A model generated the notes under the pieces. It ran no database searches. It was not told the DNA's origin and saw nothing but the letters and a program-made list of their open reading frames with translations. Both the position numbers and the translations under genes were made by a program. Positions 25,996 to 55,204 of a DNA stretch of 64,000 nt are shown piece after piece. The stretch's first letter is position 1; each line of letters opens with the position of its first letter. The stretch is from the NCBI GenBank assembly GCA_903880015.1, contig CAIRNS010000028.1, positions 66,462-130,461 on the forward strand, written 5' to 3'. Source of the DNA: an uncultured Elusimicrobia bacterium. Lineage in GTDB: Bacteria > Elusimicrobiota > Endomicrobiia > Endomicrobiales > CAIRNS01.

Positions 25996-26283
25996 ATGTC
26001 AAAGTATGAAGTTAAAGAGATTGCTGTTATGTCCATTATCAAAAATTTCCCCATTGTGTTCGGTATCCTCGGCGCGGTCATCGGTATCTTTACATTTTTT
26101 CTGTTCCCGACTGAAATTGCTCGTAATCTTTCATTCGGCGCCCGTCTCTTGTCGTGGCTGATTTTCGTCGTTCTCTACACCTTGATCATGGTTCTCGGGC
26201 TTATGCTGATTTCCTGGTTGTATAATTGGGTGGTTGGCAAAGTCGGCGGCGTGGTCATCGGACTTGAACAGCACGAAGATTAA
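25996..26283 (+). CDS. Small three-TM membrane protein of unknown function
   Basis: GGAGG lies 8 nt upstream. 95 aa, with its own promoter and terminator. Confidence 0.5.
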   Translation: MSKYEVKEIAVMSIIKNFPIVFGILGAVIGIFTFFLFPTEIARNLSFGARLLSWLIFVVLYTLIMVLGLMLISWLYNWVVGKVGGVVIGLEQHED

Positions 26284-26403: not shown

Positions 26404-27826
26404 ATGACACTCCGTACTAAATTTTCTCTGTCGGCCTCAATCCTCATTGTGGGCATTATTCTGGGGATATCGGTCAATATCTTTATTGCGCAGAAAAAAT
26501 TTCTTGCCGATCAGCTCGAAGAGAGCCGCAGTCGTATTTTCCGGGACTTCATTTATACCTGCAGCGAAGCGCTGGTTGTCAAAGATGAGATACAGGTCTT
26601 TAACACCACCAAATCAATCATCAAAACGCATAATCCCGCAATTGTATATGCCGGCTATCTTTCTGCGACCGATACCGCATTTTTCAGCACACGCGATCAG
26701 GAGCAGATGGAGGGATTAAAAATGCGGATGGTTCGCGCTGAGATGGCGGGCACGGATGATTATACTGCGTCTACCGGCGAGATGATCCGGGAATTCGGCA
26801 TGCCTTTTTATATCAAAGAGCGCTATGCCGGGACGATCCGGGCCGGGTTTTCTCAAAGCTACTTTGATGAGCAGGTCAAGGAAGGTCTTTCTGCTATCAC
26901 CCGCAAGATTCAGGGCGTTGCGATAATCGCTCTGCTTATCGGCATTTTGGCTGCAAACGCCTTGGCGTTTTATCTCAACAAGCCCATCCGGGAGCTGGCT
27001 TCCGCAGCCGACGATATCGGGCAAGGGAATCTAAACCGGAAGGTGGAGATTGATCGCGACGACGAGCTCGGAAAACTGGGGCGTGCGTTTAACGAGATGG
27101 TGCGAAAATTGCGCGAGCTCGACGAGCTAAAAGACGGATTTGTTTCCAGTGTTTCCCATGAATTGCGGTCGCCGCTGGCAGCCATTGACGGTTATTGCGA
27201 TTATCTTATAGAAGGACTCGAAAGAAATCTGGCAAGAGAAAAACAGGAAAAAAGTTTGCGGATCATGAAGGATGCCACGGTGCGCCTGACAAATTTTATC
27301 AATAATATCTTGGACATCGCCAAGATAAAGGCAGGCCGGTTTGAGTTGCGGCGGATGCCGGTCAACATTACCGAACTCTCCCAGGAGATCGTCGCGTTGT
27401 TTGCGTCTCTTGCGGCCCAGCAGAAAAAGACCGTTACCATGGACATGACGGATGCTTTACCGAATCTTGACGCCGATCCTGAAAAAATCAAGCAGGTTAT
27501 TACCAATCTTATCGGCAATTCATTGAAATTTACGCCGGAAAATGCATCGATCACCATTAGTGCTCACCTGGCTTCAAATCCTCACTTTGTGGAAGTATGG
27601 GTCACTGATACGGGTGTGGGAATCCCGGCGGACGCCGTGGATAAAGTGTTTGAAAAATTTTATCAGGTAAAAGAAAGCGAAATGAAAAAGCCCCCGGGAA
27701 CGGGACTGGGCTTGGCGATTGTTTCCGAGATTGTGCGGTTGCATGACGGCAAGATATGGGTTGAAAGTAAACTGGGGTGTCGGATCAGTATTCAAGTTTA
27801 CTTTGCCTGTTTGGAAAAATACATAA
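26404..27826 (+). CDS. Sensor histidine kinase (TM, sensor region, HAMP, HisKA, HATPase); needs a 1-nt frame correction at 27774-27777
   Basis: H-box SHELRSPL, N-box NLIGNSLKFT, G1 DTGVGI. The canonical G2/C-terminus GVGSVFKFTLPVWKNT-stop is only read in the +1 frame after the GGGG run. Confidence 0.8.
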
Positions 27827-27828
27827 TC

Positions 27829-28758
27829 ATGGTAAAAATACTGGTTGTCGATGACGAAGCCCCACTGCGCGAAATGCTGCGCGATGTGCTTGAGATGGCC
27901 GACTTCGAGGTGGAGACCGCCGATAATGGTGCGCTGGGTCTTGAGAAACTGCGTTCTTCTCCCCCTGATTTGATGTTGCTGGACTGTTCCATGCCGGTTA
28001 TGGACGGCTATGAAACGCTCGAACATATGCGCCGGGATACGATGCTGGTCAACATGCCGGTTATTATGCTGACCGTCTTAAGCGGCGAACAGAACGAGAT
28101 TAAGGGATTGCGGTACGGCGTGGATGATTATATTACAAAGCCCTTTAAACCGTCGGTACTGCTTGCCAGGGTCCGCAGGGTCTTGGTCAGGAAAAAGCTC
28201 AATATCAGCGCCAATCCGCTGACAGAACTGGCGGGGAACGCCATGATCAAGGCAGAAGTTGAAAAACGGTTGGCTGCCGGATCCGCGTTCGCTATGGTGT
28301 ACATCGACCTCAATCATTTCAAGAGTTTCAACGATAAATACGGATTTCTCCGCGGGGATGAAATCATCAAACATACGGCAGGCGTGCTTACCCGTGCGGT
28401 GAAGTCGCAGGGCGAGAAGGGTGATTTTGTCGGACATATTGGCGGGGATGATTTTATCGTGGTGACAACGCCGGAGAAAGCGCCGGTTATCTGCCGGTCA
28501 GTCATTGCGGAATTTGATTCTTCTGTACCGGCATTTTATAATCAGGAGGATCGCGCTCTTGGCTATATCATGGCGGTTGACCGCACTAACACGGTCCATA
28601 AATTTTCGCTTATGACCATATCTCTGGCGGTGGTATCCACTCAGAATCAGCCGGTGAAATGCTATGCGGAGCTGGCCGAGATTGCGGCGGGATTAAAAAA
28701 ACGGGCAAAAGAAGCGAATGCCAGCGCATGGGTTTCCAATACCAATGAAAAAATATAA
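27829..28758 (+). CDS. Response regulator: REC domain plus GGDEF-like domain with a GGDDF motif
   Basis: REC (VVDDE...DLMLLDCSMPVMDG...KP). Then NPLTELAGN, YIDLNHFKSFNDKYGFLRGD and GHIGGDDF (28441-28455). Confidence 0.8.
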   Translation: MVKILVVDDEAPLREMLRDVLEMADFEVETADNGALGLEKLRSSPPDLMLLDCSMPVMDGYETLEHMRRDTMLVNMPVIMLTVLSGEQNEIKGLRYGVDDYITKPFKPSVLLARVRRVLVRKKLNISANPLTELAGNAMIKAEVEKRLAAGSAFAMVYIDLNHFKSFNDKYGFLRGDEIIKHTAGVLTRAVKSQGEKGDFVGHIGGDDFIVVTTPEKAPVICRSVIAEFDSSVPAFYNQEDRALGYIMAVDRTNTVHKFSLMTISLAVVSTQNQPVKCYAELAEIAAGLKKRAKEANASAWVSNTNEKI

Positions 28759-29674
28759 AATTCTCGCCATTGATGATTCTCCTGAATTTATCGAAACCGT
28801 CAAGGCGGTGTTTCTCCTGTCGGACATGGAAGTGATCGCTGCGTACGGCGGCCGGGAAGGTCTCGAGAAAATTTATGCGGAGTCTCCGGATATTGTGCTC
28901 TTGGACTGCATGATGCCTGACATGGACGGATATGCCGTCATAAAGCTCATGCGGGATGACCCTGTTTTGTATAATCTTCCGGTCATAATGCTGACAGCCA
29001 GGAACGGCGAAAGTGATGAAATCAAAGGGTTATCATTCGGCATTGACGATTATGTCGTCAAACCGTTTAATCCGACGGTTCTTGTCGCCCGTGTGAAGGC
29101 TATACTTGACCGCAAGGCGCAGAGCACCAACGCCAATCCCTTGACATTCCTGGCAGGGAATCTGGTGATTAAAGACAATGCTGAGAAAAAAATAGCCGCG
29201 GGCATTCCGTTTGCCATGATGTACATCGATCTCAATGATTTCAAGAGCTACAACGATCGGTACGGGTTTGAGCGCGGCGACGGGGTGATTAAACATACCG
29301 CCTCGGTTTTGATCAAAGCGGTCGCAGAGTGCGGGCAGAAAGAAGATTTCATCGGGCACATAGGGGGTGATGATTTTATTATTCTCACGACACCGGACCA
29401 CTATGCGGCGCTTGCCGATCGGATTATTGCCTATTTCGATGAAAGCATTGTTCAGTTCTATGATGTGGAAGACCGGAGCAGAGGATACATTGTGTCGGTC
29501 GACCGCAGAAATACCATCAAACAATTTTCATTTATGACCATTTCGGTAGCCATTATTTCGACGGCTCAGACCAGAATAGTTCATTACGGACAGTTGAGCG
29601 AGATTGCAATGGAACTCAAAAAATTGGCAAAAAAATCTAACACGAGCACGGCGCTCGTGGACAGGCGGAAATGA
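28745..29674 (+). CDS. Response regulator: REC domain plus GGDEF-like domain with a GGDDF motif (paralog of the previous gene)
   Basis: Same architecture as 27829-28758, with GHIGGDDF at 29363-29377. The start overlaps the previous stop by 14 nt. Confidence 0.8.
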   Translation: MKKYKILAIDDSPEFIETVKAVFLLSDMEVIAAYGGREGLEKIYAESPDIVLLDCMMPDMDGYAVIKLMRDDPVLYNLPVIMLTARNGESDEIKGLSFGIDDYVVKPFNPTVLVARVKAILDRKAQSTNANPLTFLAGNLVIKDNAEKKIAAGIPFAMMYIDLNDFKSYNDRYGFERGDGVIKHTASVLIKAVAECGQKEDFIGHIGGDDFIILTTPDHYAALADRIIAYFDESIVQFYDVEDRSRGYIVSVDRRNTIKQFSFMTISVAIISTAQTRIVHYGQLSEIAMELKKLAKKSNTSTALVDRRK

Positions 29675-30366
29675 TGATTCTAAAAAAGATTGTCGTGGTT
29701 GACGATGACGAACACATCCGCAGTCTGGTAACCGATATCCTGGAGCGCGAGAAGTACATGGTTATTGCCTGTTCAGACACCGAGGAGGGCTATAAACGCA
29801 TTGTTAAGTCTCAGCCCGATTTGGTAATTCTGGATGTTAAAATGCCGCGCATCGGGGGCATTGAACTGTGCCGAATGATGCGTGAAAATCCGGCTGTCAA
29901 AAATATCCCCGTCATCATGCTGACGGTCGAATCATCGGAAACGGATAAAGTTATCGGGCTTGAAGTCGGCGCCGACGACTATATTACGAAGCCGTTCTCG
30001 GGCAGGGAACTGATGGCACGGGTAAAATCCCTGATGCGCCGGGCTACGCGGACCGACGATGTAGAAATTATTAAAGTCGACGGCTTGGAGATGAACATGG
30101 TATCCCGGACGGTAGTGCTCAACAAAAAAGAAGTTGAACTGCGTCCCAAAGAATTTGATTTGCTGCAGCTGTTCATTCAAAAACCGAATGTGGTGTTGTC
30201 ACGCGAGTATATTCTTGAAAATGTATTTGAATGCCAGGCCATGATCACCACCCGGACGATTGATACGCACATTAAAAATCTGCGTCACGCCCTCGGATCA
30301 TGGGGGAAAAAGATTTCCACCATGTTCGGCCGGGGATTTAAGTTCGTTCCCGAAAACAAGAAATGA
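29671..30366 (+). CDS. OmpR/PhoB-family DNA-binding response regulator
   Basis: REC domain plus a winged-helix output (LRPKEFDLLQLF, IDTHIKNLR, GRGFKF). ATGA overlap with the upstream gene. Confidence 0.9.
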   Translation: MMILKKIVVVDDDEHIRSLVTDILEREKYMVIACSDTEEGYKRIVKSQPDLVILDVKMPRIGGIELCRMMRENPAVKNIPVIMLTVESSETDKVIGLEVGADDYITKPFSGRELMARVKSLMRRATRTDDVEIIKVDGLEMNMVSRTVVLNKKEVELRPKEFDLLQLFIQKPNVVLSREYILENVFECQAMITTRTIDTHIKNLRHALGSWGKKISTMFGRGFKFVPENKK

Positions 30367-31151
30367 AAAAACGAGCCAAAAAAAAATCATCCCGTCATGA
30401 ACCTCAAAAGAAACGGTTGACCGCCCGGGCGGTCAGTGCTTTGTCTCAGGAACACGAGCGGCTGGTTGCCGCCATCGCCGCCAAATATCACACCTATTTT
30501 CCCAGCATCGCGTTGGATGAACTCATTGCTGAGGGAAATCGCGGTCTTTTGGAAGCGGCAAAACGGTACGATCCATATCGGAAGGTTAAGTTCTCGACAT
30601 ATGCCTGGTTTTGGATCATGAAGAACATGAAAGAATATGTGACGGAAGATGTGGCTATCATAGATATTCCGCGAGCTATTATCAGCGATGTCCGCAGGGT
30701 GACGGCGACCATGGACAGCGCCGCAAAACAGGGAAAAAAGATTTCTCCGTCAGCAATCGCGCGGCAGTTGGACATGCCGGTCGATGAAGTGCGCGGTCTT
30801 CTCAGAGATCGGGGAACCATTACCCGCGTGATGTCCATCGACAAATATCTTAACGACGAGGACCGGACGCAGACCATCGCCGATGTTCTCGTCGATCCGT
30901 CAGATTCTTCCGGACCCGCGGTGTTCGACGCCTCAGCGGCTTCCGCCGGTGTCAGGGATGTTATTGACCATTTGTCTCCCATGGAACGAGCAGTTGTCGA
31001 ATTGCGTTTCGGAATGCGGGGCGCCGCGCCGTTGAAGCTCAATGAAACCGCAAAAAAACTGAAATTGAGTGCGGCAAAAGTAAGGGATATCGAATCAATC
31101 GCGCGGTTAAAGCTCAGAAAACTCTTACGGGATCACCATGACAATGCGTAA
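30363..31151 (+). CDS. Sigma-70 family RNA polymerase sigma factor (group 3-like)
   Basis: Region 2 (LIAEGNRGLLEAAKRYDP...FSTYAWFWI) and region 4 (LKLNETAKKLKLSAAKVRDIE). ATGA overlap with the upstream gene. Confidence 0.8.
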   Translation: MKKRAKKKSSRHEPQKKRLTARAVSALSQEHERLVAAIAAKYHTYFPSIALDELIAEGNRGLLEAAKRYDPYRKVKFSTYAWFWIMKNMKEYVTEDVAIIDIPRAIISDVRRVTATMDSAAKQGKKISPSAIARQLDMPVDEVRGLLRDRGTITRVMSIDKYLNDEDRTQTIADVLVDPSDSSGPAVFDASAASAGVRDVIDHLSPMERAVVELRFGMRGAAPLKLNETAKKLKLSAAKVRDIESIARLKLRKLLRDHHDNA

Positions 31152-33282
31152 TATAATAACCATTCTTTTGCTGGGTACCTGCACAGCATTCGCCGCGGCC
31201 GGACAGACAGGCCGCACTGCGGCTGATTATCTTAATCTAATGCCCAACGCCCGCGCAGCAGCTATGGGGGACGGCACGATCGCACTGCTGGCTGACGAAC
31301 CGTCCAGCGTCATGGTCAATCCCGCCGCCCTGGCTGGAGTCACCCGCCCGTGGATGGCGTTTCATTACCTCGCTCTGCCGGGGGATATTCCGTATAATTT
31401 CACCAGTTTTTGCATACCGTCCTCTGTGGGTGCCTTGGGGGCGTCGCTTATTTATGTGCCATACGGATCGTCGGCCGGATACGACGCTACTGGGGCGTCA
31501 ATCGATGTGCCGTCGAGTTATGATTCGGCTGTAATGATTAGCGGCGCGATACCCATCGCCGCGCAATTGCCGGTGTACAAGGAGTACGGTTATCTGGGTG
31601 CGTCGCTGAAATTCATGCACGAAGCCCTCGCCTATTATTCGACCGAGGCAATCGCCCTGGACCTTGGCGCCATTATTAATATGCCCTTGGTGCCGGGATT
31701 GACCGCGGGAGCCACCTATAAGAACATAGGCACCGGTATGAAATTTGTCACTGAGGACAACAGTTTGCCCGCAGGGGTCAGTTACGGTATGGCCTATCAT
31801 AATCCTTCGTGGTGGGATATGATTGCCACCGTCGATTCTCTGGCAGCGGCAAACGGTCCCGCACGGATGGCTGCGGGTCTGAGCATCTCGCCCGTTTATT
31901 TTTTGACGATGCGCACGGGCTACCGCGATGACGCAGATTCCCTGGTTAGCGGCATACGTCTGGGGCTGGGGCTTCGGTTCGGCAGTTTTTCACTTGATTA
32001 CGCCTTTACGCCCATCAATTATTTTTCTCCGAAGCATACCCTGAGCGTGTGTATGTCCATCGGGGGGCTCACGCGGATGGATACGGCCTCGGATTATTAT
32101 TTGAATCAACATTTCCGGCAAGCCTGCGAACAATACTACAAAAAAGATTATATCGCCGCGCGTCAGCGGTTCGAGGAAATACTTTCCATTTATCCCGATC
32201 ATTTGCCGTCGCAGAAATATCTGACAAAGATAATCTCGGCGGTTGAAGCCGCTGATCAGCGCAAGCAGGATGCGGTTGAAGAGTGGCTGGTCAAGGCCGA
32301 CGATGCGTTCGAGAAAAAGGATCTTATTACTGCCGGAAAATATTATAACCGGGTACTAAAAATTTCGATGAACAGCGGTATGGCCCAGGGTGGTATTGAC
32401 CGTATCCGACAGATGATCGCCGAAGTGAAACGGGAAAATGATCGGCAGGAGAACCAGGTAGTCATCAATAAAATATGGAAACGCGCGCTTGCCCGTTTTC
32501 ACAAAGGCGATTATGTAAGGGCCAAGGATGATTTCAAGGATATTCTGTATATCGACCCGAAACACACCGAGTCGAAAAAATATCTCGTCGAAATCGACAA
32601 CCAGCTGACGAAAATAGCCGCCGCGCGTATCAACGAACTTTTTGATCAGGGCATGAAATTGTACAAAAGCGGCAATTACGCCGAGGCGATAAAGTATTTC
32701 GATGCGGTATTTATTGCGGCGCCCCACCGCCTTGATGCGCAGGATCTTTCGCTTAAGGCGCAGGAGTCGATTAGCGCCGCTCAGCTCAAACTTCACGATT
32801 CCGCGGTAGCCAAGGAACAGGACCTGAACCGCAGCGAAATGGCAGCATTGTTCGATAAAGCGCTCAAATATTACGAAAAAGCCAATTATGAGACGGCTTT
32901 GACATGGTTCACCAAAAGTGAAACGTTTGCGTCAGAGCATGAGTTTACCGAATTCCGGGAAAGCGCCCGTAATTATCTGACGTTGGTCAAAAACACGCTG
33001 GCGGAGAAACACTATAAGCGCGGCTTTAATTACGCCCGCGGCAACGATATTGAGCGGGCTGCCGAAGAATATAAAAAGGCGCTCGAGTATGAGCCCACCA
33101 ACACATCGGCGCAGATAGAACTTGACCGTATCAGCGACGATATCGCCCAGCGGTATTTCGAACGCGGTATGGAATTCTTTTCACTCAATCAGATGGATAA
33201 AGCACGGGAAATGTTTAAAAAATCGCTGTCGTATCAGCCCGATAAGGCCGAGTCGCAACGGGCGCTGGAACGGATAAAATAA
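31138..33282 (+). CDS. PorV/PorQ-like outer-membrane beta-barrel fused to a long TPR array
   Basis: Signal peptide, then TAADYLNL..ARAAAMGDG..ADEPSSVMVNPAALAG. The C-terminal ~400 aa are TPR-like (repeated Y..A...F...L...P). Confidence 0.5.
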   Translation: MTMRNIITILLLGTCTAFAAAGQTGRTAADYLNLMPNARAAAMGDGTIALLADEPSSVMVNPAALAGVTRPWMAFHYLALPGDIPYNFTSFCIPSSVGALGASLIYVPYGSSAGYDATGASIDVPSSYDSAVMISGAIPIAAQLPVYKEYGYLGASLKFMHEALAYYSTEAIALDLGAIINMPLVPGLTAGATYKNIGTGMKFVTEDNSLPAGVSYGMAYHNPSWWDMIATVDSLAAANGPARMAAGLSISPVYFLTMRTGYRDDADSLVSGIRLGLGLRFGSFSLDYAFTPINYFSPKHTLSVCMSIGGLTRMDTASDYYLNQHFRQACEQYYKKDYIAARQRFEEILSIYPDHLPSQKYLTKIISAVEAADQRKQDAVEEWLVKADDAFEKKDLITAGKYYNRVLKISMNSGMAQGGIDRIRQMIAEVKRENDRQENQVVINKIWKRALARFHKGDYVRAKDDFKDILYIDPKHTESKKYLVEIDNQLTKIAAARINELFDQGMKLYKSGNYAEAIKYFDAVFIAAPHRLDAQDLSLKAQESISAAQLKLHDSAVAKEQDLNRSEMAALFDKALKYYEKANYETALTWFTKSETFASEHEFTEFRESARNYLTLVKNTLAEKHYKRGFNYARGNDIERAAEEYKKALEYEPTNTSAQIELDRISDDIAQRYFERGMEFFSLNQMDKAREMFKKSLSYQPDKAESQRALERIK

Positions 33283-33311: not shown

Positions 33312-33332
33312 TCCCCCTTTGTCAAAGGGGGA
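33312..33332 (+). other. Strong GC hairpin after the TPR-barrel gene (no U-tract)
   Basis: TCCCCCTTT-GTC-AAAGGGGGA: 9-bp stem with a 3-nt loop. Confidence 0.35.
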
Positions 33333-33375
33333 GAGAGGCGCGGATGTGAACATGCGGGAACATGAAGGATATTTT

Positions 33376-33738
33376 ATGAAAAGATTTGTTTTTCTTGCGG
33401 CGGCGTTTATGGCAATAAGCACGGTGTGTCACGCCGATGTAATCGCGTACCCCAATCCGTGGATTCCTGAAGATACCCACTCATTGCGCGGGAATCTTGC
33501 CGATGGAATCACATTTGCTGCAGGGAAAGGTGTTCCTATCAGCGGCGCGTGCGATATTTCTATCTATACTATTTCGGGGAATCTGGTCAGTCATCGTGCG
33601 CTGGGCGCTTCCGATGCGAAAAAGTGGATGGGTAAAAACGACAACGATAATGGAAAATATGTCGCCAGTGGCGTCTATCTATGGGTCGTCAAAACAGCCC
33701 AAGAAACCAAAACAGGCAAAATAGTCGTCGTCCGGTAA
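33376..33738 (+). CDS. Small secreted protein consisting of a T9SS-CTD-like / FlgD-Ig-like beta-sandwich
   Basis: Signal peptide, then YPNPW..., ISIYTISGNLV, SGVYLWVV, TGKIVVVR-end. Confidence 0.45.
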   Translation: MKRFVFLAAAFMAISTVCHADVIAYPNPWIPEDTHSLRGNLADGITFAAGKGVPISGACDISIYTISGNLVSHRALGASDAKKWMGKNDNDNGKYVASGVYLWVVKTAQETKTGKIVVVR

Positions 33739-49920: not shown

Positions 49921-50406
49921 ATGACGGAGCAGCGGCAGGAACTGGTGGAGATGCTTCAGATTATGGAAAGAATCGAGCTGTCCATGGCGGCCCTGTACAC
50001 CGCTTGCGCCGAGAGGTGGCAAAAAGGAAATTCATTCTGGTTGAACCTGGTTAAAGATGAAAAAAGCCATTCGCATTATTTTCTGCGGACCGCAGAATTG
50101 ATTAAACAAGATGCGACAAGTTTTTCACCAGGCAGGTTATTTAACAAGGCGGCTGTAGAAACAACGGTAAAAGGAATTGAAAAAAACATTGAAGGTGTCA
50201 AAAATGGCGCCACCTCATTTGATGCTTTATTGTATATTGCGCGGGATTATGAACACGCGCTTATGGAACTCGATTACCGGGAAATCATTCAGTCAAGCAA
50301 CGCTGAATATATTCGGTTGACTGAGATAGTCACCAGCCAGACGATTATGCACTTGCGTTCAATAGAAGAAAAAATATCCTTAGTAAACCAATCCCACAAT
50401 GAATGA
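49921..50406 (+). CDS. Ferritin-like / four-helix-bundle protein of unknown function
   Basis: Helical, with E...H spacing (ERIELSMAALY, DEKSHSHYF, YEHAL). The call is weak. Confidence 0.35.
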   Translation: MTEQRQELVEMLQIMERIELSMAALYTACAERWQKGNSFWLNLVKDEKSHSHYFLRTAELIKQDATSFSPGRLFNKAAVETTVKGIEKNIEGVKNGATSFDALLYIARDYEHALMELDYREIIQSSNAEYIRLTEIVTSQTIMHLRSIEEKISLVNQSHNE

Positions 50407-50466
50407 AAGAAATGCTGGCAAGTCTTTTAATGGAAAAGTATTTGGGCGAAAGTGCGCGTTATTGAG

Positions 50467-50991
50467 ATGAAAACAGTATTATGGTGTATCGCGGTTCTAT
50501 TGAGTCTGACTGTTCTGTGTGGAGCGCGTGAAATGCAGGAACTAAAAACCGTCGACTATGTTGATGTGGCGCGCTACATGGGAACATGGTATGAAATAGC
50601 GAAATTCCCGCAATGGTTCGAAAAAGGGCTTGTCGGGGTAACGGCAAACTATACATTGCTCCCCAACGGGAAAGTGCGGGTTCTCAACAGCGGGTATAAA
50701 AATGATTTCAATGGAAAGTATAAAAAGGCAAAAGGCAAGGCGTGGATAGTCGACAAAAAAACCAACGCAAAACTAAAAGTAAGTTTTTTTTGGCCCTTTG
50801 CGGGCGATTACTGGATTATTGAGCTCGGCAAGGAATACGAATACGCCGTCGTGGGCGACGCCTCAAGAAAATATCTCTGGATACTATCAAGACCCCCCCA
50901 TATGGACGAATCTCTCTACAGTGAAATCCTTCAACGCATAAAAAATAAAGGTTTTGACATAGGAAAACTCGAAAAAAATCTACAAAAATAA
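50467..50991 (+). CDS. blc: Bacterial lipocalin (Blc-like)
   Basis: YMGTWYEIAKFP, GDYWIIELG and YLWILSR motifs, plus a signal peptide. Confidence 0.85.
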   Translation: MKTVLWCIAVLLSLTVLCGAREMQELKTVDYVDVARYMGTWYEIAKFPQWFEKGLVGVTANYTLLPNGKVRVLNSGYKNDFNGKYKKAKGKAWIVDKKTNAKLKVSFFWPFAGDYWIIELGKEYEYAVVGDASRKYLWILSRPPHMDESLYSEILQRIKNKGFDIGKLEKNLQK

Positions 50992-51062
50992 GGGTGCGGG
51001 GAAATGGATGGACAAACATGTGCATCCTGTATCTGATGAGCACCATCCGCGAGCGTTAATCA

Positions 51063-51656
51063 ATGAAAACGACAATAAAAACTAACCGGTGCCGCTGTCA
51101 GTGGGTGGATTTGAGTAAACCTGATTATGTTGCCTATCACGATACTGAATGGGGTGTTCCTGTCCGTGACGATAGGCTTATATTTGAATTTTTGACCTTG
51201 GAATCCGCGCAGGCAGGGTTGAGCTGGTATACGGTTCTCAAAAAACGGGAGAATTATCGTGCGGCGTTTGCAAATTTTGAGCCGGAGAAAGTAGCTCGCT
51301 TCAGCCAGAAAAAAATCGAGCTGTTGCTGTGCAATCCCGGAATCATTAGAAATAAATTGAAAATAAACGCCGCAGTCATTAACGCGCAGAAATTTCTTGA
51401 AGTACAGGCGCGGTTCGGGACTTTTTCAAAGTATATATGGCAGTTTGTCGGAGGCAGTCCGATACAGCACACTATACGGACACTCGCTGATTTTCCGGCA
51501 ACAACCAAAGAATCGGATGCGTTAAGCAAGGATTTGAAGAGCAGAGGATTTAAATTTACTGGTTCCACCATATGCTACGCGCACATGCAGGCAACGGGGA
51601 TGGTAAATGACCATGCCCGTGATTGTTTCAGAAGAAAAGAAGTAATGGGAAAATAG
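51063..51656 (+). CDS. tag: DNA-3-methyladenine glycosylase I
   Basis: C.W...P.Y..YHD.EWG, FEFLTLE.AQAGLSW and ICYAHMQATGMVNDH. Confidence 0.9.
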   Translation: MKTTIKTNRCRCQWVDLSKPDYVAYHDTEWGVPVRDDRLIFEFLTLESAQAGLSWYTVLKKRENYRAAFANFEPEKVARFSQKKIELLLCNPGIIRNKLKINAAVINAQKFLEVQARFGTFSKYIWQFVGGSPIQHTIRTLADFPATTKESDALSKDLKSRGFKFTGSTICYAHMQATGMVNDHARDCFRRKEVMGK

Positions 51657-51782
51657 CGCCATGTAACAAGTACAAAGAATCAGTTATGAGAACACCAATC
51701 TCTGGCAAACTGCAAGAGTGGGGTCTGTCATGGCGATACAAGCGTGCAGTTTCATAAGGCGACTGGGATAAATGAGGGAAGA

Positions 51783-52628
51783 ATGAAGAATACTTCTAAA
51801 AAAATCAACATCTTTGAAGTTGGTATCGCATATAAAAAAGCAGGGGAATATAGGAAAGCGTTGGTGTGTTTTAAAAAGGCTGTGAGTATTAAGGGATGTG
51901 AAGATGATGCCAATATCAATATCATGGAAATGCTGCTTAAGACGGAGGCATATGAAAAAGCATTGCAATTTATCGCGCATGTAAAAATAAGCCATCAATA
52001 CAATTATCAAAGATATGTATTCCAAGCGCAATGCAGTCAAGCGCTTGGAAAATGCAGTGAGGCAATCAAGTACTCTATTAAGGCAGGGATGTGTGCTAAG
52101 GAGGCAAGCGATGCTCAATCTGTCAAGAAAAGCCTTGCACATCTATATGCGCAGCAAAAAGACTTCAAGAGAGCCCTTGGGTTTATAGAAAGCTTGGAGA
52201 AATACGATGAAATAGATGATGACATGTTGCTACTCAAGGGAATATGCCTTAAAGAGCAGGGGAATTATGATGCATCCTTGAAATGTCTTGCTAAAGTAGT
52301 GGAAGGAAAAAGACGTGATATGGCAGGGGAAATAATGGGGGATATTTATGTAAGACAAAACAAATTTTCACTAGGAAAAGCTCATTATATTAAACTTCTT
52401 GAGAATGCTAATGAAAAAGAACAATCATATCTGTTCAACTATAATCTGGCAAGATTGTATGTAGCCAACAATGATTATATCGGGGGAAGGCCATTTCTGC
52501 TGAAATGGTATCATCATGTCGACGAAAAGAAAAATATATTTCTAAAAAATAAATTACTAAATATAATTGAGTATGCTGATAAGAAAACAATACTCAAATC
52601 CAAGCCCATAGAAATGACTTTACAATAA
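51783..52628 (+). CDS. TPR-repeat protein (probably the N-terminal part of a TPR-radical SAM fusion)
   Basis: ATG follows GAGGGAAG. Repeated A..Y.KAL.....G/A 34-aa periodicity. The sequence is AT-rich. Confidence 0.55.
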   Translation: MKNTSKKINIFEVGIAYKKAGEYRKALVCFKKAVSIKGCEDDANINIMEMLLKTEAYEKALQFIAHVKISHQYNYQRYVFQAQCSQALGKCSEAIKYSIKAGMCAKEASDAQSVKKSLAHLYAQQKDFKRALGFIESLEKYDEIDDDMLLLKGICLKEQGNYDASLKCLAKVVEGKRRDMAGEIMGDIYVRQNKFSLGKAHYIKLLENANEKEQSYLFNYNLARLYVANNDYIGGRPFLLKWYHHVDEKKNIFLKNKLLNIIEYADKKTILKSKPIEMTLQ

Positions 52629-53623
52629 CATCGAAATGTAATTTAAAATGTGCGATGTGTGATACGCATAAAAATAATTTTGATCTCGGAAAGACAACGG
52701 CGGATGAAATTGAAAAACTGTTTCCCTATTTAGAAGGCATATCTTGGCTTGGCGGGGAAGTGTTCCTTGCGAAACGATTTGACCATTTGTTTGAACAGGC
52801 GCTGCGTCACAAAAATATTCGAACCAATGAGATTATTACCAATGGGCTGCTCTTAACCGAGAAAACAATCGATAAAATCGTTGCGAACAAAGTAAAATTG
52901 ACCGTTTCTGTGGATGGTGTAACAAAAAATATATATGAAGGGATTCGTAAAGGTGGAAATTTTGAAGTATTGCAAAAAAAACTGCATATGATTTCAGAAG
53001 CGTATTCCCGCACACATACTGAAGCGTATGTGTTGCAGCTTAATCATGTAGTGCTTAAAAGTAATTATAAAGATTTAATTCGATTGCCGGATTTTGCGCG
53101 CAAATATGGGTTTAATAGAATTAGTTTGATGAGATGTATCCCAAGCCCAGTCGCAAATAATGAATTGATAGAGAATGATCTTGCAATAATGGGATATATT
53201 AAAGGCATAATGCCGCAGGTGCTTGATAGAGCGCAGAAAAATGGGATCACCATGTTGCTTGACCGTTTTTATGGCAACATGGCTTTCAATAATGGTAAAA
53301 AAAGCAGTGTTCAACAATCTCAATATTTAGACAGTGGATGCGATACAAACAGCGCCGAAAGTGTTTATGGGAAAAGAGAGGATTATTGTAGTGCTCCCTG
53401 GAAGAGATTTACTCTTTTAACCGATGGATTTGTATATCCGGATTGTGATTGTGTTGTGCCCGCCGGTGGTTTTATTAAACAATCAATTGCAGAGACATGG
53501 AATAGCAGCATTATGCAGCAATACCGGGCAACATTAGGCAGGAAAAGTGGTAACAGTTTATGCAATAAAGAATGTATGAAGAATAAATACTACGCTAATA
53601 ATGTGCAAAAATACATATTGTAA
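52619..53623 (+). CDS. Radical SAM enzyme with a SPASM/twitch-like C-terminal Cys domain; no usable start codon of its own
   Basis: FTITSKCNLKCAMC (Cys codons at 52637, 52649, 52658) lies upstream of the tracked ATG at 52655. Also WLGGEVFL, ITNGLLL, and CSAPW...GFVYPDCDC...CNKEC. Confidence 0.7.
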   Translation, partial: FTITSKCNLKCAMCDTHKNNFDLGKTTADEIEKLFPYLEGISWLGGEVFLAKRFDHLFEQALRHKNIRTNEIITNGLLLTEKTIDKIVANKVKLTVSVDGVTKNIYEGIRKGGNFEVLQKKLHMISEAYSRTHTEAYVLQLNHVVLKSNYKDLIRLPDFARKYGFNRISLMRCIPSPVANNELIENDLAIMGYIKGIMPQVLDRAQKNGITMLLDRFYGNMAFNNGKKSSVQQSQYLDSGCDTNSAESVYGKREDYCSAPWKRFTLLTDGFVYPDCDCVVPAGGFIKQSIAETWNSSIMQQYRATLGRKSGNSLCNKECMKNKYYANNVQKYIL

Positions 53624-53661
53624 AGTGCTTATAAAGCGATTCCGAAAGAGTGGTGTATTGT

Positions 53662-55089
53662 ATGTCACTGTATAGTGCACTACCGGGGAAGCAATGGCGG
53701 AGAAGTATTCCTGCCCGGGGCGTAGTTTTTTGTTGCGGAGTCATCTTTGCAATAGTAATGGTTGAACTGTTTATGCGTGCGGGATGGTTTTCAATCTTTG
53801 CTCTGAGGGAATACGGGAATCATGTTTCCGGTGTTCAGTCAGGGGCATATAAGATTTTGTGTCTGGGTGACTCCATGTCCGCATTTACCTACACCCCCAT
53901 CTTGGAACGCATATTAAATGAGAAAAGTTCCGGTCTAAAGTTTGCAGTTATCAATAAGGCAATCCCCGCGACGACCTCTACCGTATTGTCGGCACATGCG
54001 CAAGAATACATAGAGCAGTATAACCCCCAAATGGTCATTGCAATGATGGGGCATAATGATTACCAGCCGTTACTCTTTATGCCATTGATGGGAGACCCCC
54101 AGCGTAGCCACTGGATGCTCATTGAGTGCTTAAAATTTATACTAAAAAAACATCCTCCTACAGAACTTCCGGCCACAAAAGTGATGTCCACGGATAAAGG
54201 TGCTGAAGCAAGCAAAAGAGATGACCGGTTAGAAGCTCTCCGCCGGGTGATAGAAGAAGATCCGCGCAATATGCAGGCATATACGGAATTGGGGTGCTAC
54301 TATCTTGGCATCCGCAAAGACGATGCGGCAATTGACTTGTTTGCCCGTGCCATAAGCATGAATCCGGGAAGCGTTGATTTCTATATAAAGATTGCTGATA
54401 TTTACTTCAATCAGAAGCGTTACGCGGAAGCGCTGCGTATGCTTAAAGCGGCTCCAGTAGGACATGAAAATTATTGTTTTGTTTTGAGGGACATGGCCCG
54501 AGTGTATGCCGTCTTGAAGGACACACCCAGTCAGGTTGCTGCATTGGAGAAAGCCGTTCGCTCAGGTGGTGATCCGGTAACTCAGCAGATGTTGTTGCAG
54601 TTCTATTTTGACGCAGGAGATACGCGGCGTGCCATTGAGCTCGAAAAAAAAATATCTGATCAAAACGATCCGACAGGAAATGCGCTGGGCTGTTTGTCCC
54701 ATGTCTATCTTTTGCGGAAAGAAATTAAGATTGCAAAGCAATACGCCGATAAGGCGACTGCGGTGCGGAGTGTCAATCTCAATAAAACTACCCGTGCCAA
54801 TTATTGCCGATTAGCCCGATTGACTCGTGACAGGAACATTCAATTGGTTTGCATACAGTATCCGCTGAGAAGCGTCAAACCGTTAAAAGAAATGTTGGAT
54901 GGATTTGATAATATCCTTTTTGTTGACAACGAAAATATATTTTGGGATGCAGTTGCGGCGAAAGGGTACGCTGCTTATTTTATAGATAATTTTGCCGGTG
55001 ATTTTGGCCATTGCACTTCCCTGGGCTATGAAATGATGGCAGCCAACATAGCTGATAATATCCTTACCGCGATAGATATTAAACATTGA
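53662..55089 (+). CDS. Membrane-anchored SGNH/GDSL-like hydrolase with a TPR array inserted between catalytic blocks
   Basis: N-terminal TM segment, block I LCLGDSMS, block III MMGHNDY, about 200 aa of TPR, then block V DFGHCT. Confidence 0.55.
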   Translation: MSLYSALPGKQWRRSIPARGVVFCCGVIFAIVMVELFMRAGWFSIFALREYGNHVSGVQSGAYKILCLGDSMSAFTYTPILERILNEKSSGLKFAVINKAIPATTSTVLSAHAQEYIEQYNPQMVIAMMGHNDYQPLLFMPLMGDPQRSHWMLIECLKFILKKHPPTELPATKVMSTDKGAEASKRDDRLEALRRVIEEDPRNMQAYTELGCYYLGIRKDDAAIDLFARAISMNPGSVDFYIKIADIYFNQKRYAEALRMLKAAPVGHENYCFVLRDMARVYAVLKDTPSQVAALEKAVRSGGDPVTQQMLLQFYFDAGDTRRAIELEKKISDQNDPTGNALGCLSHVYLLRKEIKIAKQYADKATAVRSVNLNKTTRANYCRLARLTRDRNIQLVCIQYPLRSVKPLKEMLDGFDNILFVDNENIFWDAVAAKGYAAYFIDNFAGDFGHCTSLGYEMMAANIADNILTAIDIKH

Positions 55090-55204
55090 CAGCCAATCAA
55101 TGGATGGTTGGCCGGTATTGCAAACAATGTTTACATATAATAAAAGCGGGGAATAATAATAGTGGCAAAGTGTCTTTTTAGAATAGTCCGGCGGGGATGG
55201 GTAA

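What the first reader, a model, noticed from the sequence alone, without database searches (positions are those of the whole stretch)
27829..29674. Two tandem REC-GGDEF-like paralogs with a non-canonical GGDDF active-site motif
Both proteins have a normal receiver domain, followed by NPLT.LAGN, YIDLN.FKS.ND.YGF.RGD and GHIGGDDF (28441-28455 and 29363-29377).

- Canonical diguanylate cyclases have GG(D/E)EF, whose fourth-position Glu is required for activity in characterised enzymes. They also have GH..GD rather than GF..GD.
- GGDD is the signature of Cas10-type cyclase palm domains.
- The Asn and Asp that contact the guanine base in canonical enzymes appear to be retained (FND, RGD).
- No RxxD inhibitory site precedes the motif.

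These could be degenerate receptors. They could also be cyclases with altered chemistry or product. The tandem duplication under one kinase suggests functional divergence.
Basis: partly seen in the sequence, partly recalled or inferred. Interest (0 to 1): 0.65.

Follow-up and report, generated by a model that had tools for sequence, protein, structure and literature searches.

The report
Two GGDDF-type diguanylate cyclase response regulators
Two neighbouring response regulators carry a conserved GGDDF variant of the domain that makes the bacterial messenger c-di-GMP; they belong to a large, widespread subfamily in which one member has already been shown to be active, so they are most likely ordinary signalling cyclases, not new chemistry.

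Summary
Genes at 27829-28758 (A) and 28745-29674 (B) encode REC + GGDEF-like proteins that are 54% identical. Both carry GHIGGDDF, NPLTxLAGN and YIDLNxFKSxNDxYGFxRGD, and neither has an RxxD I-site.

The motif is the hallmark of a large, old GGDEF subfamily, not a local degeneration.
- All 120 listed homologues, and 146 of the 150 best cluster representatives, have [GCAI]HxGGDD[FY].
- 644 clusters at 50% identity match at E<=1e-30.
- The domain occurs behind REC, CBS, GAF, PAS and HAMP sensors and next to EAL domains, in many phyla.
- The subfamily includes the EAL-CBS-GGDDF proteins (Bordetella DdpB type; PA3258/RapA by the literature).
- It also includes a Geobacter sulfurreducens HAMP-GGDDF protein that is almost certainly GSU1937, a published active cGAMP/c-di-GMP synthase.

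Sequence profiles and fold searches find only diguanylate cyclases, never Cas10. The metal-binding Asp, the Lys, and the guanine-reading Asn and Asp are all retained.

The best reading is that these are phosphorylation-activated c-di-GMP synthases without product inhibition, in an operon of histidine kinase, A, B, OmpR-type regulator, sigma factor and a PorV/Q-like TPR protein. Paralog A has lost a 98%-conserved C-terminal Arg and may be impaired or regulatory. This is a new member of a known kind, of modest interest.

The parts
25996..26283 (+). Small (95 aa) predicted membrane protein upstream of the kinase
   Evidence: ORF. It has no Pfam or NCBIfam hit. A 95-96 aa gene sits in the same position in related loci L002 and L085.
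26404..27826 (+). Sensor histidine kinase (TM, sensor region, HAMP, HisKA, HATPase_c). It has an apparent 1-nt frameshift in the G-run at 27773-27776, which fuses it in frame to paralog A in the raw sequence.
   Evidence: Pfam finds HAMP, HisKA and HATPase_c. Deleting one G restores a 473-aa kinase ending ...ESKLGVGSVFKFTLPVWKNT*, which matches the C-termini of the separate 475-aa kinases in L085 and L002.
27829..28758 (+). Paralog A: REC (about 27838-28176, phospho-acceptor Asp52 at 27982-27984) plus GGDDF-type GGDEF domain (about 28192-28755). It lacks the family's C-terminal [DEN][RK]R motif.
   Evidence: Asn306 replaces an Arg that is 98% conserved, and this is A's only deviation among 72 positions that are at least 85% conserved.
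28441..28455 (+). GGDDF active-site motif of A (within GHIGGDDF)
28745..29674 (+). Paralog B (longest ORF from 28718, likely start 28745): REC (28760-29098, phospho-acceptor Asp at 28904-28906) plus GGDDF-type GGDEF domain (29114-29671). All family-invariant residues are present.
   Evidence: AF2 models reach pLDDT 91.3 for the full length and 95.2 for the domain.
29363..29377 (+). GGDDF active-site motif of B (within GHIGGDDF)
29671..30366 (+). OmpR-type response regulator (REC + Trans_reg_C), start overlapping the stop of B by 4 nt
   Evidence: The same position is occupied by this gene type in L002, L084 and L085.
30363..31151 (+). Sigma-70 family factor (regions 2, 3 and 4), translationally coupled
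   Evidence: The best NCBIfam matches are RpoD/RpoS-like at about 120 bits, all below their cut-offs.
31138..33282 (+). PorV/PorQ-like outer-membrane barrel fused to TPR repeats; last gene of the overlapping gene string
   Evidence: The NCBIfam PorV_fam model scores 85.8 bits (cut-off 90) and the PorQ model 88 bits. Pfam finds TPR repeats.

Best explanation
A and B are two-component response regulators whose output domain belongs to a distinct, ancient clade of the GGDEF family. The clade's signature is NPLTxLPGN, DLDNFKxFNDxYGFxxGD, GH[IV]GGDDF, FDxxxxxFYxxEDRxRGYIxxxDRxG and AELKKxAKxxxGSxYVxDRR.

Proposed mechanism (inferred). The upstream HAMP histidine kinase phosphorylates the receiver Asp. 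The long helix linking REC to the output domain then brings two GTP-loaded GGDDF domains together. These condense 2 GTP to c-di-GMP.

Residue roles (assigned by alignment position to PleD).
- Metal binding: the strand-1 Asp (D171 in B) and the third-position Asp.
- Base recognition: Asn179 and Asp188, which predict guanine.
- Catalytic base: the fourth-position Asp replaces the canonical Glu.
- His replaces the canonical Arg two residues before GG.

There is no RxxD I-site, so product feedback inhibition of the canonical kind is not expected.

The same kinase probably also feeds the OmpR-type regulator. The operon would then couple a transcriptional output (OmpR-type regulator, sigma factor) with a second-messenger output.

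B is predicted to be fully competent. A, which has lost a near-invariant C-terminal Arg, may be weaker or act as a regulatory partner.
For: Family membership.
- Pfam GGDEF scores are above the cut-off.
- The domain-only AF2 model (pLDDT 95.2) aligns over 178-193 columns with 50 of 50 top PDB hits, all GGDEF cyclases, at TM 0.56-0.71.
- The full-length model best matches WspR, DgcR and PleD.

Conservation typical of an enzyme.
- D171, F175, K176, N179, G187, G213, H214, G216, G217, D218, D219 and R263 are invariant in 109 sequences.
- GGDD[FY] is present in 120 of 120 homologues, and HxGGDD[FY] in 146 of the 150 best representatives.

Variation at the specificity position. It is Asp in 307 of 337 sequences, with whole clades carrying Ser (16) or Asn (14). 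This pattern matches the known Hypr specificity switch and implies a working nucleotide pocket.

Domain architectures are those of cyclic-dinucleotide enzymes. Among 71 genome loci, REC occurs in 41, CBS in 20 and EAL in 17, with occasional HAMP, GAF, PAS and kinase modules.

An experimentally active member.
- G. sulfurreducens P0501/P0522 has a HAMP-GGDDF architecture, GHVGGDDF and Ser at the specificity site.
- It matches the subfamily HMM over positions 2-186 at 218.9 bits, although it was not used to build the HMM. Canonical GGDEF domains score 35-49 bits on positions 20-104 only.
- It fits the published description of GSU1937, which makes cGAMP and c-di-GMP and is killed by GGDDF->GADDF (PMC8835794).
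- PA3258 (EAL-CBS-GGDDF) shows apparent cyclase activity when its phosphodiesterase is inactivated (PMC12900916).

Operon structure. Starts and stops overlap from A through the TPR gene, and the arrangement is syntenic in L002, L084 and L085.
Against: - No assay exists for any REC-GGDDF member.
- Three residues important in canonical enzymes are replaced across the family: the Arg before GG becomes His, the fourth-position Glu becomes Asp, and the Arg after the last helix becomes Ser. The last equivalence is inferred from position only.
- The C-terminal half cannot be aligned to canonical GGDEF by sequence. Pfam, the PDB profile search and hhalign all stop near position 95-120.
- Wild-type GSU1937 and three of four fusions were inactive in E. 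coli.
- PA3258 gave no phenotype in early screens, as cited.
- That P0501 is GSU1937 is inferred from the paper's description, not from a locus tag.
- A lacks the 98%-conserved Arg.
- No c-di-GMP receptor, phosphodiesterase or riboswitch was found in the parts of the window I examined.
Confidence: 0.62

Rival explanations
1. The proteins are non-catalytic signalling proteins. The GGDDF domain would bind GTP or a cyclic dinucleotide as a sensor or adaptor, or the two proteins would mainly act as phosphate sinks that tune phosphotransfer from the kinase to the OmpR-type regulator.
For: - The GGDDF motif is usually classed as degenerate.
- PA3258 and RapA are known mainly as phosphodiesterases, and early PA3258 screens saw no cyclase phenotype.
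- Three response regulators share one kinase, and related loci carry even more REC proteins. This is the layout expected of phosphate-sink circuits.
- A has lost a near-invariant Arg.
- Rare proteins carry both a GGDDF domain and a canonical GGEEF domain (P0138, P0263).
Against: - Receptor-type GGDEF domains normally lose the catalytic residues. Here the metal-binding Asp, the Lys, the Asn and GGDD are invariant over hundreds of clusters below 50% identity.
- There is no I-site to bind c-di-GMP.
- In 41 of 71 loci a REC domain is the only Pfam domain type found beside the GGDDF domain, so these proteins would have no output at all.
- The GSU1937-type member is active, and its activity depends on the motif.
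Confidence: 0.2
2. The proteins are active cyclases with a different product or chemistry. Examples are another cyclic dinucleotide, a linear pppGpG-type product, or a non-canonical linkage, arising from the shorter catalytic Asp, the His and the remodelled C-terminal half.
For: - The subfamily-wide changes (Glu->Asp, Arg->His, and a conserved extra helix and hairpin carrying invariant R263) are fixed, which suggests a mechanistic difference.
- GSU1937 produces cGAMP as well as c-di-GMP.
- Ser and Asn clades exist at the specificity position.
Against: - A and B carry the guanine-specifying Asn and Asp, not Ser or Asn.
- The GSU1937 GGDDF domain also made c-di-GMP, at a level comparable to GacA.
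- The frequent fusion to EAL domains, which are c-di-GMP-specific phosphodiesterases, ties the clade to c-di-GMP.
Confidence: 0.14
3. The proteins are Cas10- or mCpol-like palm domains that make cyclic oligoadenylates for a defence system.
For: GGDD is also the Cas10 palm signature (general knowledge). There is a weak Pfam Cas10-Cmr2_palm2 hit at 13-14 bits.
Against: - That hit is far below the 27-bit cut-off. Among the 71 members scanned, this model matched only three, best E-value 1.9e-4. In P0138 the canonical GGEEF region scores 24.4 bits on it.
- No Cas10 chain appears among the PDB profile hits or the Foldseek top 50.
- No CARF, SAVED or effector neighbour is present, and no neighbour is conserved across 81 loci.
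- The genomic context is housekeeping and two-component signalling.
Confidence: 0.02

Closest known systems
GSU1937 of Geobacter sulfurreducens (Hypr GGDDF cyclase; PMC8835794)
   Same: It has the same GGDEF subfamily domain. The G. sulfurreducens 436-aa HAMP-GGDDF protein P0501/P0522 matches the subfamily HMM over positions 2-186 at 218.9 bits. It is 34-37% identical to the A and B domains. It shares GH[IV]GGDDF, PLTxLPGN, the conserved hairpin and the C-terminal GSxxxxxRR.
   Different: The sensor is 4HB-TM-HAMP instead of REC. It has Ser rather than Asp at the base-specificity position, which explains its cGAMP synthesis. That P0501 is GSU1937 is inferred from the paper's description.
EAL-CBS-GGDDF proteins: P. 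aeruginosa PA3258 / P. fluorescens RapA / Bordetella DdpB
   Same: The Bordetella parapertussis (L059) and Shewanella (L079) EAL-CBS-GGDDF proteins score 161 and 154 bits on the subfamily HMM. GH[IV]GGDDF is present in 117 of 120 family members. The literature gives the same motif and architecture for PA3258 and DdpB.
   Different: These proteins carry an N-terminal EAL phosphodiesterase and CBS sensors. They are known mainly as phosphodiesterases, with only indirect evidence for cyclase activity. I could not retrieve or test the PA3258 sequence itself.
REC-GGDEF response regulators WspR, DgcR and PleD
   Same: They share the architecture and the presumed activation logic of phosphorylation-driven dimerisation. 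They are the best full-length structural matches: 3bre at E=3.4e-21, 6zxb at 2.1e-19, plus PleD. DgcR aligns over residues 5-244.
   Different: They have canonical GG[DE]EF, an Arg before GG, and an RxxD I-site. Identity is only 17-26%. The NCBIfam equivalog cut-offs are missed by a wide margin: PleD 129-134 bits against 474, DgcR 73 against 500.
Hypr GGDEF GacA (cGAMP synthase)
   Same: REC-GGDEF architecture. The idea that a single active-site residue sets nucleotide specificity applies here too.
   Different: GacA has Ser at the specificity position and a canonical fourth-position Glu (PMC8835794), whereas A and B have Asp and GGDDF.
Cas10 / mCpol palm domains
   Same: A GGDD metal-binding hairpin on a palm-type fold (general knowledge).
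   Different: No significant sequence or fold match specific to Cas10 was found, and there is no defence context.

Membership tests
GGDEF domain family (PF00990) | Profile match above the curated threshold | tested here: met
   53.4 bits (A) and 49.8 bits (B) against a cut-off of 23.8. Only the N-terminal 90-103 of 161 profile positions are matched.
GGDEF domain family (PF00990) | Complete GGDEF fold | tested here: met
   The domain AF2 model has pLDDT 95.2 and pTM 0.90. The Foldseek top 50 are all GGDEF domains, aligned over 178-193 columns at TM 0.56-0.71.
GGDEF domain family (PF00990) | Signature [GAS]G[DE]E[FY] | tested here: not met
   Both proteins have GGDDF, with Asp at the fourth position. 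This is fixed across the subfamily.
GGDEF domain family (PF00990) | Metal-binding Asp in strand 1, Lys of FK, and guanine-binding Asn and Asp (PleD D327, K332, N335, D344) | tested here: met
   In B these are D171, K176, N179 and D188, aligned to canonical sequences by HMMER and hhalign. They are invariant or nearly invariant in the family.
GGDEF domain family (PF00990) | Allosteric I-site RxxD five residues before the motif (common but not universal) | tested here: not met
   EKGD in A and QKED in B. Only 8 of about 115 family members have RxxD.
GGDEF domain family (PF00990) | Conversion of 2 GTP to c-di-GMP | not testable with these tools
   This needs an enzyme assay. Indirect support comes from the GSU1937-type member.
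GH[IV]GGDDF subfamily (GSU1937 / PA3258 / DdpB type) | End-to-end match to the subfamily profile, including the divergent C-terminal half | tested here: met
   A scores 252 bits and B 264 bits, but both were in the seed alignment. Members outside the seed score 154-219 bits over HMM positions 2-186. Canonical domains score 35-49 bits on positions 20-104 only.
GH[IV]GGDDF subfamily (GSU1937 / PA3258 / DdpB type) | His two residues before GG, invariant hairpin Arg, and C-terminal GS...[DEN][RK]R | tested here: inconclusive
   B has all of these. A has the His and the hairpin Arg but ends ...ASAWVSNTNEKI, without the Arg.
Hypr GGDEF (cGAMP synthases) | Ser at the position of the guanine-specifying Asp | tested here: not met
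   Both A and B have Asp (RGD). Ser and Asn occur in other clades of the subfamily.
Cas10 / mCpol cyclase palm | Profile or fold match to the Cas10 palm | tested here: not met
Cas10 / mCpol cyclase palm | Genomic association with CARF/SAVED effectors or CRISPR-Cas genes | tested here: not met
   Clustering the neighbours of 81 loci gave no conserved partner; the largest family occurs in 8 loci. The window operon encodes two-component and sigma proteins.
PleD / DgcR equivalogs (NCBIfam NF007135, NF047654) | Score above the equivalog cut-off | tested here: not met
   PleD model: 128.9 and 133.6 bits against a cut-off of 474. DgcR model: 73.1 bits against 500.
Two-component receiver domain (PF00072) | Full-length REC with an acidic pocket, phospho-acceptor Asp, and Thr and Lys | tested here: met
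   100.2 and 92 bits over profile positions 1-111. DD, the D of LLDC, the T of MLT and the K of KPF can be read in both sequences.

The most novel reading that the evidence does not exclude
The GH[IV]GGDDF clade could be a mechanistically distinct class of cyclic-dinucleotide synthase. Its fixed substitutions are His for Arg, Asp for Glu, Ser for Arg, plus a conserved extra helix and hairpin with an invariant Arg and a C-terminal Arg. In this reading they would create a different catalytic or allosteric arrangement that replaces the missing I-site. The retained tandem paralogs would work as an A:B heterodimer, with A (lacking the conserved Arg) as the regulatory or half-site subunit.
Probability: 0.12. 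Interest if true: 0.6.

Novelty: new member of a known kind. Interest (0 to 1): 0.3.

Why it matters
GGDDF domains are routinely written off as 'degenerate' in censuses of c-di-GMP proteins.

The data here show that GGDDF with a preceding His is the fixed signature of a large, phylogenetically broad GGDEF clade: at least 644 clusters at 50% identity, spread across many phyla. The clade keeps every residue needed for metal and GTP binding. It includes one experimentally active enzyme, and it includes proteins of pathogens (PA3258 and the DdpB type).

If the clade is generally active, many proteins now scored as inactive would need to be re-annotated as cyclases that lack product inhibition.

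For this window specifically, the finding is an ordinary two-component / c-di-GMP signalling operon in an Elusimicrobia-like genome.

Tried and rejected
- Cas10/mCpol relationship: rejected. Pfam scores are sub-threshold, no PDB or Foldseek hits appear, and there is no defence neighbourhood.
- Conserved neighbours: I searched 81 loci for a conserved partner gene that could point to an effector. None was found; the top family occurs in 8 loci and is made of lineage-specific riboflavin genes.
- C-terminal half: I tried to align it to canonical GGDEF by hhalign. Only columns 10-94 aligned. The equivalences K305 = PleD K442 and S310 = R446 therefore remain positional inferences.
- Rfam scan of the window: only four tRNAs and no c-di-GMP riboswitch.
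- Other GGDEF domains in the window: none.
- A frameshift as the cause of A's odd C-terminus: rejected, since no frame encodes the RR motif.
- The kinase-A fusion as a real hybrid kinase: judged unlikely, because removing one G restores the conserved kinase C-terminus and stop codon.
- PA3258 sequence: it could not be retrieved. Its membership in the subfamily rests on the literature description of its motif and architecture, plus the tested Bordetella and Shewanella homologues.
Full report
**Observation**

The region holds two adjacent genes on the + strand, A (27829-28758, 309 aa) and B.
- B's longest ORF starts at 28718. The likely start, and the one used by the database gene call, is Met10 at 28745 (309 aa).
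- Both proteins have full-length receiver domains (100.2 and 92 bits) and Pfam GGDEF hits above the cut-off (53.4 and 49.8 bits against 23.8). The GGDEF hits cover only the first 90-103 of 161 profile positions.
- A and B are 54% identical (E=7e-120).
- The quoted motifs are all present, and neither protein has RxxD at the I-site position (EKGD and QKED).
- In the raw window, A is read in frame with the upstream histidine kinase as a 784-aa ORF. Removing one G from the run at 27773-27776 restores a 473-aa kinase ending ESKLGVGSVFKFTLPVWKNT*. This matches the C-termini of the separate 475-aa kinases in two related genomes. The fusion is therefore most likely a homopolymer error or a recent frameshift, and A is a separate gene starting at 27829.

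**The motif is a clade signature, not a local degeneration**

A search with the B output domain returned 291 homologues. All 120 listed carry GGDDF (119) or GGDDY (1).

An exhaustive HMMER scan of 1.84 billion cluster representatives gave the following:

| E-value threshold | Matching clusters |
|---|---|
| 1e-3 | 35,062 |
| 1e-10 | 3,032 |
| 1e-30 | 644 |

Of the best 150, 146 carry [GCAI]HxGGDD[FY].

In an alignment of 109 full-length REC proteins, D171, F175, K176, N179, G187, G213, H214, G216, G217, D218, D219 and R263 (B numbering) are invariant. The consensus also includes four features that canonical GGDEF domains lack:
- NPLTxLPGN in place of DxLTGLxNRR.
- YGF in place of GH.
- A conserved segment FDxxIxxFYDxEDRxRGYIxxxDRxG.
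- A C-terminal AELKKxAKxxxGSxYVxDRR.

The taxa include Chloroflexota, Omnitrophota, Nitrospirota, Elusimicrobiota, Actinomycetota (Micromonospora, Salinispora), Clostridia, Bacillus and Lysinibacillus, Desulfobacterota and Geobacter, Gemmatimonadota, and Beta- and Gammaproteobacteria (Bordetella, Achromobacter, Shewanella, Vreelandella).

**It is a GGDEF domain, not a Cas10-like palm**

- A profile of 46 diverse subfamily domains, searched against all PDB sequences, hits only GGDEF cyclases at significant E-values (best 5euh at 3.7e-14). No Cas10 chain appears.
- The Pfam Cas10-Cmr2_palm2 model scores 14.3 and 13 bits against a cut-off of 27. That is less than the canonical GGEEF region of P0138 scores on the same model (24.4 bits).
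- AF2 models are confident: full-length pLDDT 91.3, domain-only pLDDT 95.2 and pTM 0.90.
- Foldseek places the full-length model nearest WspR (3bre), DgcR (6zxb) and PleD.
- Foldseek aligns the domain model over 178-193 columns to 50 of 50 top hits, all GGDEF domains, at TM 0.56-0.71 and about 20% identity.

The C-terminal half is therefore a remodelled but complete GGDEF half. Its sequence is too divergent for Pfam, HMMER or hhalign to align. The subfamily is sharply separated from canonical domains:

| Test sequence (not used to build the HMM) | Score on subfamily HMM | HMM positions covered |
|---|---|---|
| Subfamily members | 154-219 bits | 2-186 or 3-177 |
| Canonical GGEEF domains | 35-49 bits | within 20-104 |

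**Catalytic residues**

Alignment to canonical sequences in the N-terminal half gives these equivalences to PleD:

| Residue in B | PleD residue | Role / position |
|---|---|---|
| D171 | D327 | metal binding |
| K176 | K332 | Lys of the FK motif |
| N179, D188 | N335, D344 | guanine recognition |
| H214 | R366 | two residues before GG |
| D218, D219 | E370, E371 | third and fourth positions of the GG[DE]EF motif |

K305 and S310 occupy the positions of K442 and R446 at the end of the last helix. That assignment is positional inference only.

The specificity position is Asp in 307 of 337 subfamily sequences. Whole clades carry Ser (16) or Asn (14). In the Geobacter HAMP-GGDDF family, Ser dominates (93 Ser, 8 Asn). 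Clade-wise variation at exactly the residue known to switch Hypr GGDEF enzymes from GTP to ATP/GTP (PMC8835794) argues that the pocket binds nucleotide substrates. A and B both have Asp, which predicts GTP and c-di-GMP.

**Link to characterised proteins**

The literature holds few mentions of GGDDF.
[quoted passage not shown] Its deletion lowers cGAMP reporter activity in G. sulfurreducens. A GacA-GSU1937 domain fusion makes cGAMP and c-di-GMP in E. coli, and GADDF abolishes this.
- *The matching G. sulfurreducens protein.* A search seeded with a Geobacter MAG homologue retrieved the G. sulfurreducens 436-aa protein P0501/P0522 (AAR35313.1). It has a 4HB-TM-HAMP-GGDDF architecture, GHVGGDDF, and Ser at the specificity site, and it matches the subfamily HMM end to end at 218.9 bits. 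The paper says only one such protein exists in that genome, so this is almost certainly GSU1937. That identification is inferred, not confirmed by a locus tag.
- *EAL-CBS-GGDDF proteins.* They belong to the same subfamily. A Bordetella parapertussis 610-aa protein (DdpB type) scores 161 bits and a Shewanella protein 154 bits. GH[IV]GGDDF is present in 117 of 120 family members.
- *PA3258.* The literature describes it as EAL-CBS-GGDEF with a GGDDF motif and as the RapA orthologue. It gave no phenotype in early screens. In 2026 work it showed phosphodiesterase activity, plus apparent cyclase activity once the phosphodiesterase was inactivated.

**Architecture and context**

- Among 71 genome loci the GGDDF domain is combined with REC (41), CBS (20) and EAL (17), and occasionally with HAMP, 4HB_MCP, HisKA/HATPase, PAS, GAF or MshEN. 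Rare proteins also carry a canonical GGEEF domain (P0138, P0263). This is the modular sensor-plus-enzyme pattern typical of c-di-GMP turnover proteins.
- No gene family is conserved next to it across 81 loci. That fits a diffusible-messenger enzyme rather than a dedicated conflict system.
- In the window, the genes from A to the last gene overlap start to stop. The order is kinase, A, B, OmpR-type regulator (29671-30366), sigma-70 family factor (30363-31151), and a PorV/PorQ-like barrel fused to TPR repeats (31138-33282).
- The same order recurs downstream of accA and fba in Candidatus Liberimonas, with a single GGDDF regulator. It recurs in assembly GCA_964577205.1 with two GGDDF regulators separated by two REC-REC proteins. 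It also occurs in a near-identical ENA contig.
- Same-contig paralog pairs fall into different clades of an NJ tree, and A sits on a long branch. The duplication is therefore old and retained.

**A versus B**

Of 72 positions conserved in at least 85% of the other 107 sequences in the 109-sequence alignment, each paralog deviates at one.
- B deviates with Phe32 for Leu in the receiver domain.
- A deviates with Asn306 in place of a 98%-conserved C-terminal Arg (R317 in B). A ends ...ASAWVSNTNEKI*, whereas its closest relatives end ...VVNRRRE...VVDRRKV or ...VVEKRKE. No alternative frame encodes the motif.

Whether this Arg is catalytic, structural or regulatory is unknown. It is the one concrete sign of functional divergence between the paralogs.

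**Conclusion**

The most likely reading (about 0.6) is that A and B are phosphorylation-activated diguanylate cyclases of the GH[IV]GGDDF clade. They lack canonical product inhibition and are driven by the adjacent HAMP kinase in parallel with an OmpR-type regulator and a sigma factor. B is probably fully active, and A is possibly attenuated or a regulatory partner.

| Rival | Confidence |
|---|---|
| Non-catalytic sensor or phosphate-sink role | about 0.2 |
| Altered product | about 0.14 |
| Cas10-like oligoadenylate synthase | about 0.02 |

What is shown here:
- fold and family membership;
- invariance of the motif;
- retention of substrate and metal ligands;
- absence of the I-site;
- subfamily membership of an experimentally active enzyme.

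What is inferred:
- the product;
- activation by the kinase;
- the C-terminal residue equivalences;
- the role of A.

**Novelty**

These are new members of a known kind. No REC-linked member has been assayed. What I did not find stated in the papers searched is that GGDDF with the preceding His defines a coherent, very large clade uniting GSU1937, PA3258/DdpB-type proteins and thousands of REC, CBS and HAMP proteins. This matters for annotation, but it is incremental.

Noticed in passing
window 27773-27776 (ORF 26404-28758): A run of four G's causes an apparent +1 frameshift at the end of the histidine kinase. This fuses it in frame to paralog A as a 784-aa ORF. Deleting one G restores the conserved kinase C-terminus (GVGSVFKFTLPVWKNT*, stop at 27824-27826). 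The protein database also holds a 784-aa representative (P0127) whose GGDDF domain lies at residues 600-782, possibly the same fused call; I did not compare the sequences.
   Followed up: yes
window 28720-28758 (C-terminus of paralog A): A ends ...ASAWVSNTNEKI* and lacks the [DEN][RK]R motif, an Arg conserved in 98% of the family. This stretch overlaps the start of B.
   Followed up: partly
P0062, P0065, P0070 etc. (Ser); P0136, P0140, P0159 etc. (Asn); L026 5254-6546; P0501: Within the GGDDF subfamily, whole clades carry Ser or Asn instead of the guanine-specifying Asp. These are 326-aa REC proteins annotated as Actinobacteria, Geobacter-type HAMP proteins, and 420-470-aa 'LPGG...RGN' proteins. 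They are candidates for cGAMP or other non-GG products.
   Followed up: partly
window 31138-33282 and 33319-33738: The last operon gene is a PorV/PorQ-like outer-membrane barrel (85.8 bits against a cut-off of 90) fused to TPR repeats. It is followed by a small protein with a weak, far sub-threshold match to the C-terminal end of the PorZ model (31.6 bits, cut-off 260). The kinase / regulator / sigma / Por-like layout recalls the PorXY-SigP control of type IX secretion.
   Followed up: partly
window 55205-59647 (-) and 59681-63994 (-): Two adjacent giant ORFs (1480 and 1437 aa) have no Pfam hit at E<=1e-5.
   Followed up: no
window ~50000-55100: A low-GC stretch (0.39-0.42 against about 0.50 elsewhere) holds a TPR protein (51744-52628), a radical SAM/SPASM protein (52655-53623) and another TPR protein (53650-55089). 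It may be a peptide-maturation or horizontally acquired islet.
   Followed up: no
P0286, P0327, P0337, P0361 (homologues of L079 4804-6588): Several EAL-CBS-GGDDF proteins are named 'D-glycero-D-manno-heptose 1-phosphate guanosyltransferase' in NCBI/UniRef. This looks like a propagated misannotation.
   Followed up: no
L085 6163-7997: In the related assembly GCA_964577205.1, two REC-REC proteins (246 and 354 aa, no other Pfam domain) lie between the two GGDDF paralogs, and a stand-alone REC precedes the kinase. That makes a multi-receiver cluster around one kinase.
   Followed up: partly
L001 6119-8933: In Aceticella autotrophica the REC-GGDDF gene directly follows mreBCD, a PBP gene and minCDE, and precedes DUF6873 and ytxC. 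There is no adjacent kinase.
   Followed up: no
L005 8868-12275 and similar loci: Riboflavin-synthesis-like genes recur near the REC-GGDDF gene in 5-8 of 81 loci. I identified them from the look of the translated ORF starts only, not by a profile search. This is probably lineage-specific synteny.
   Followed up: no
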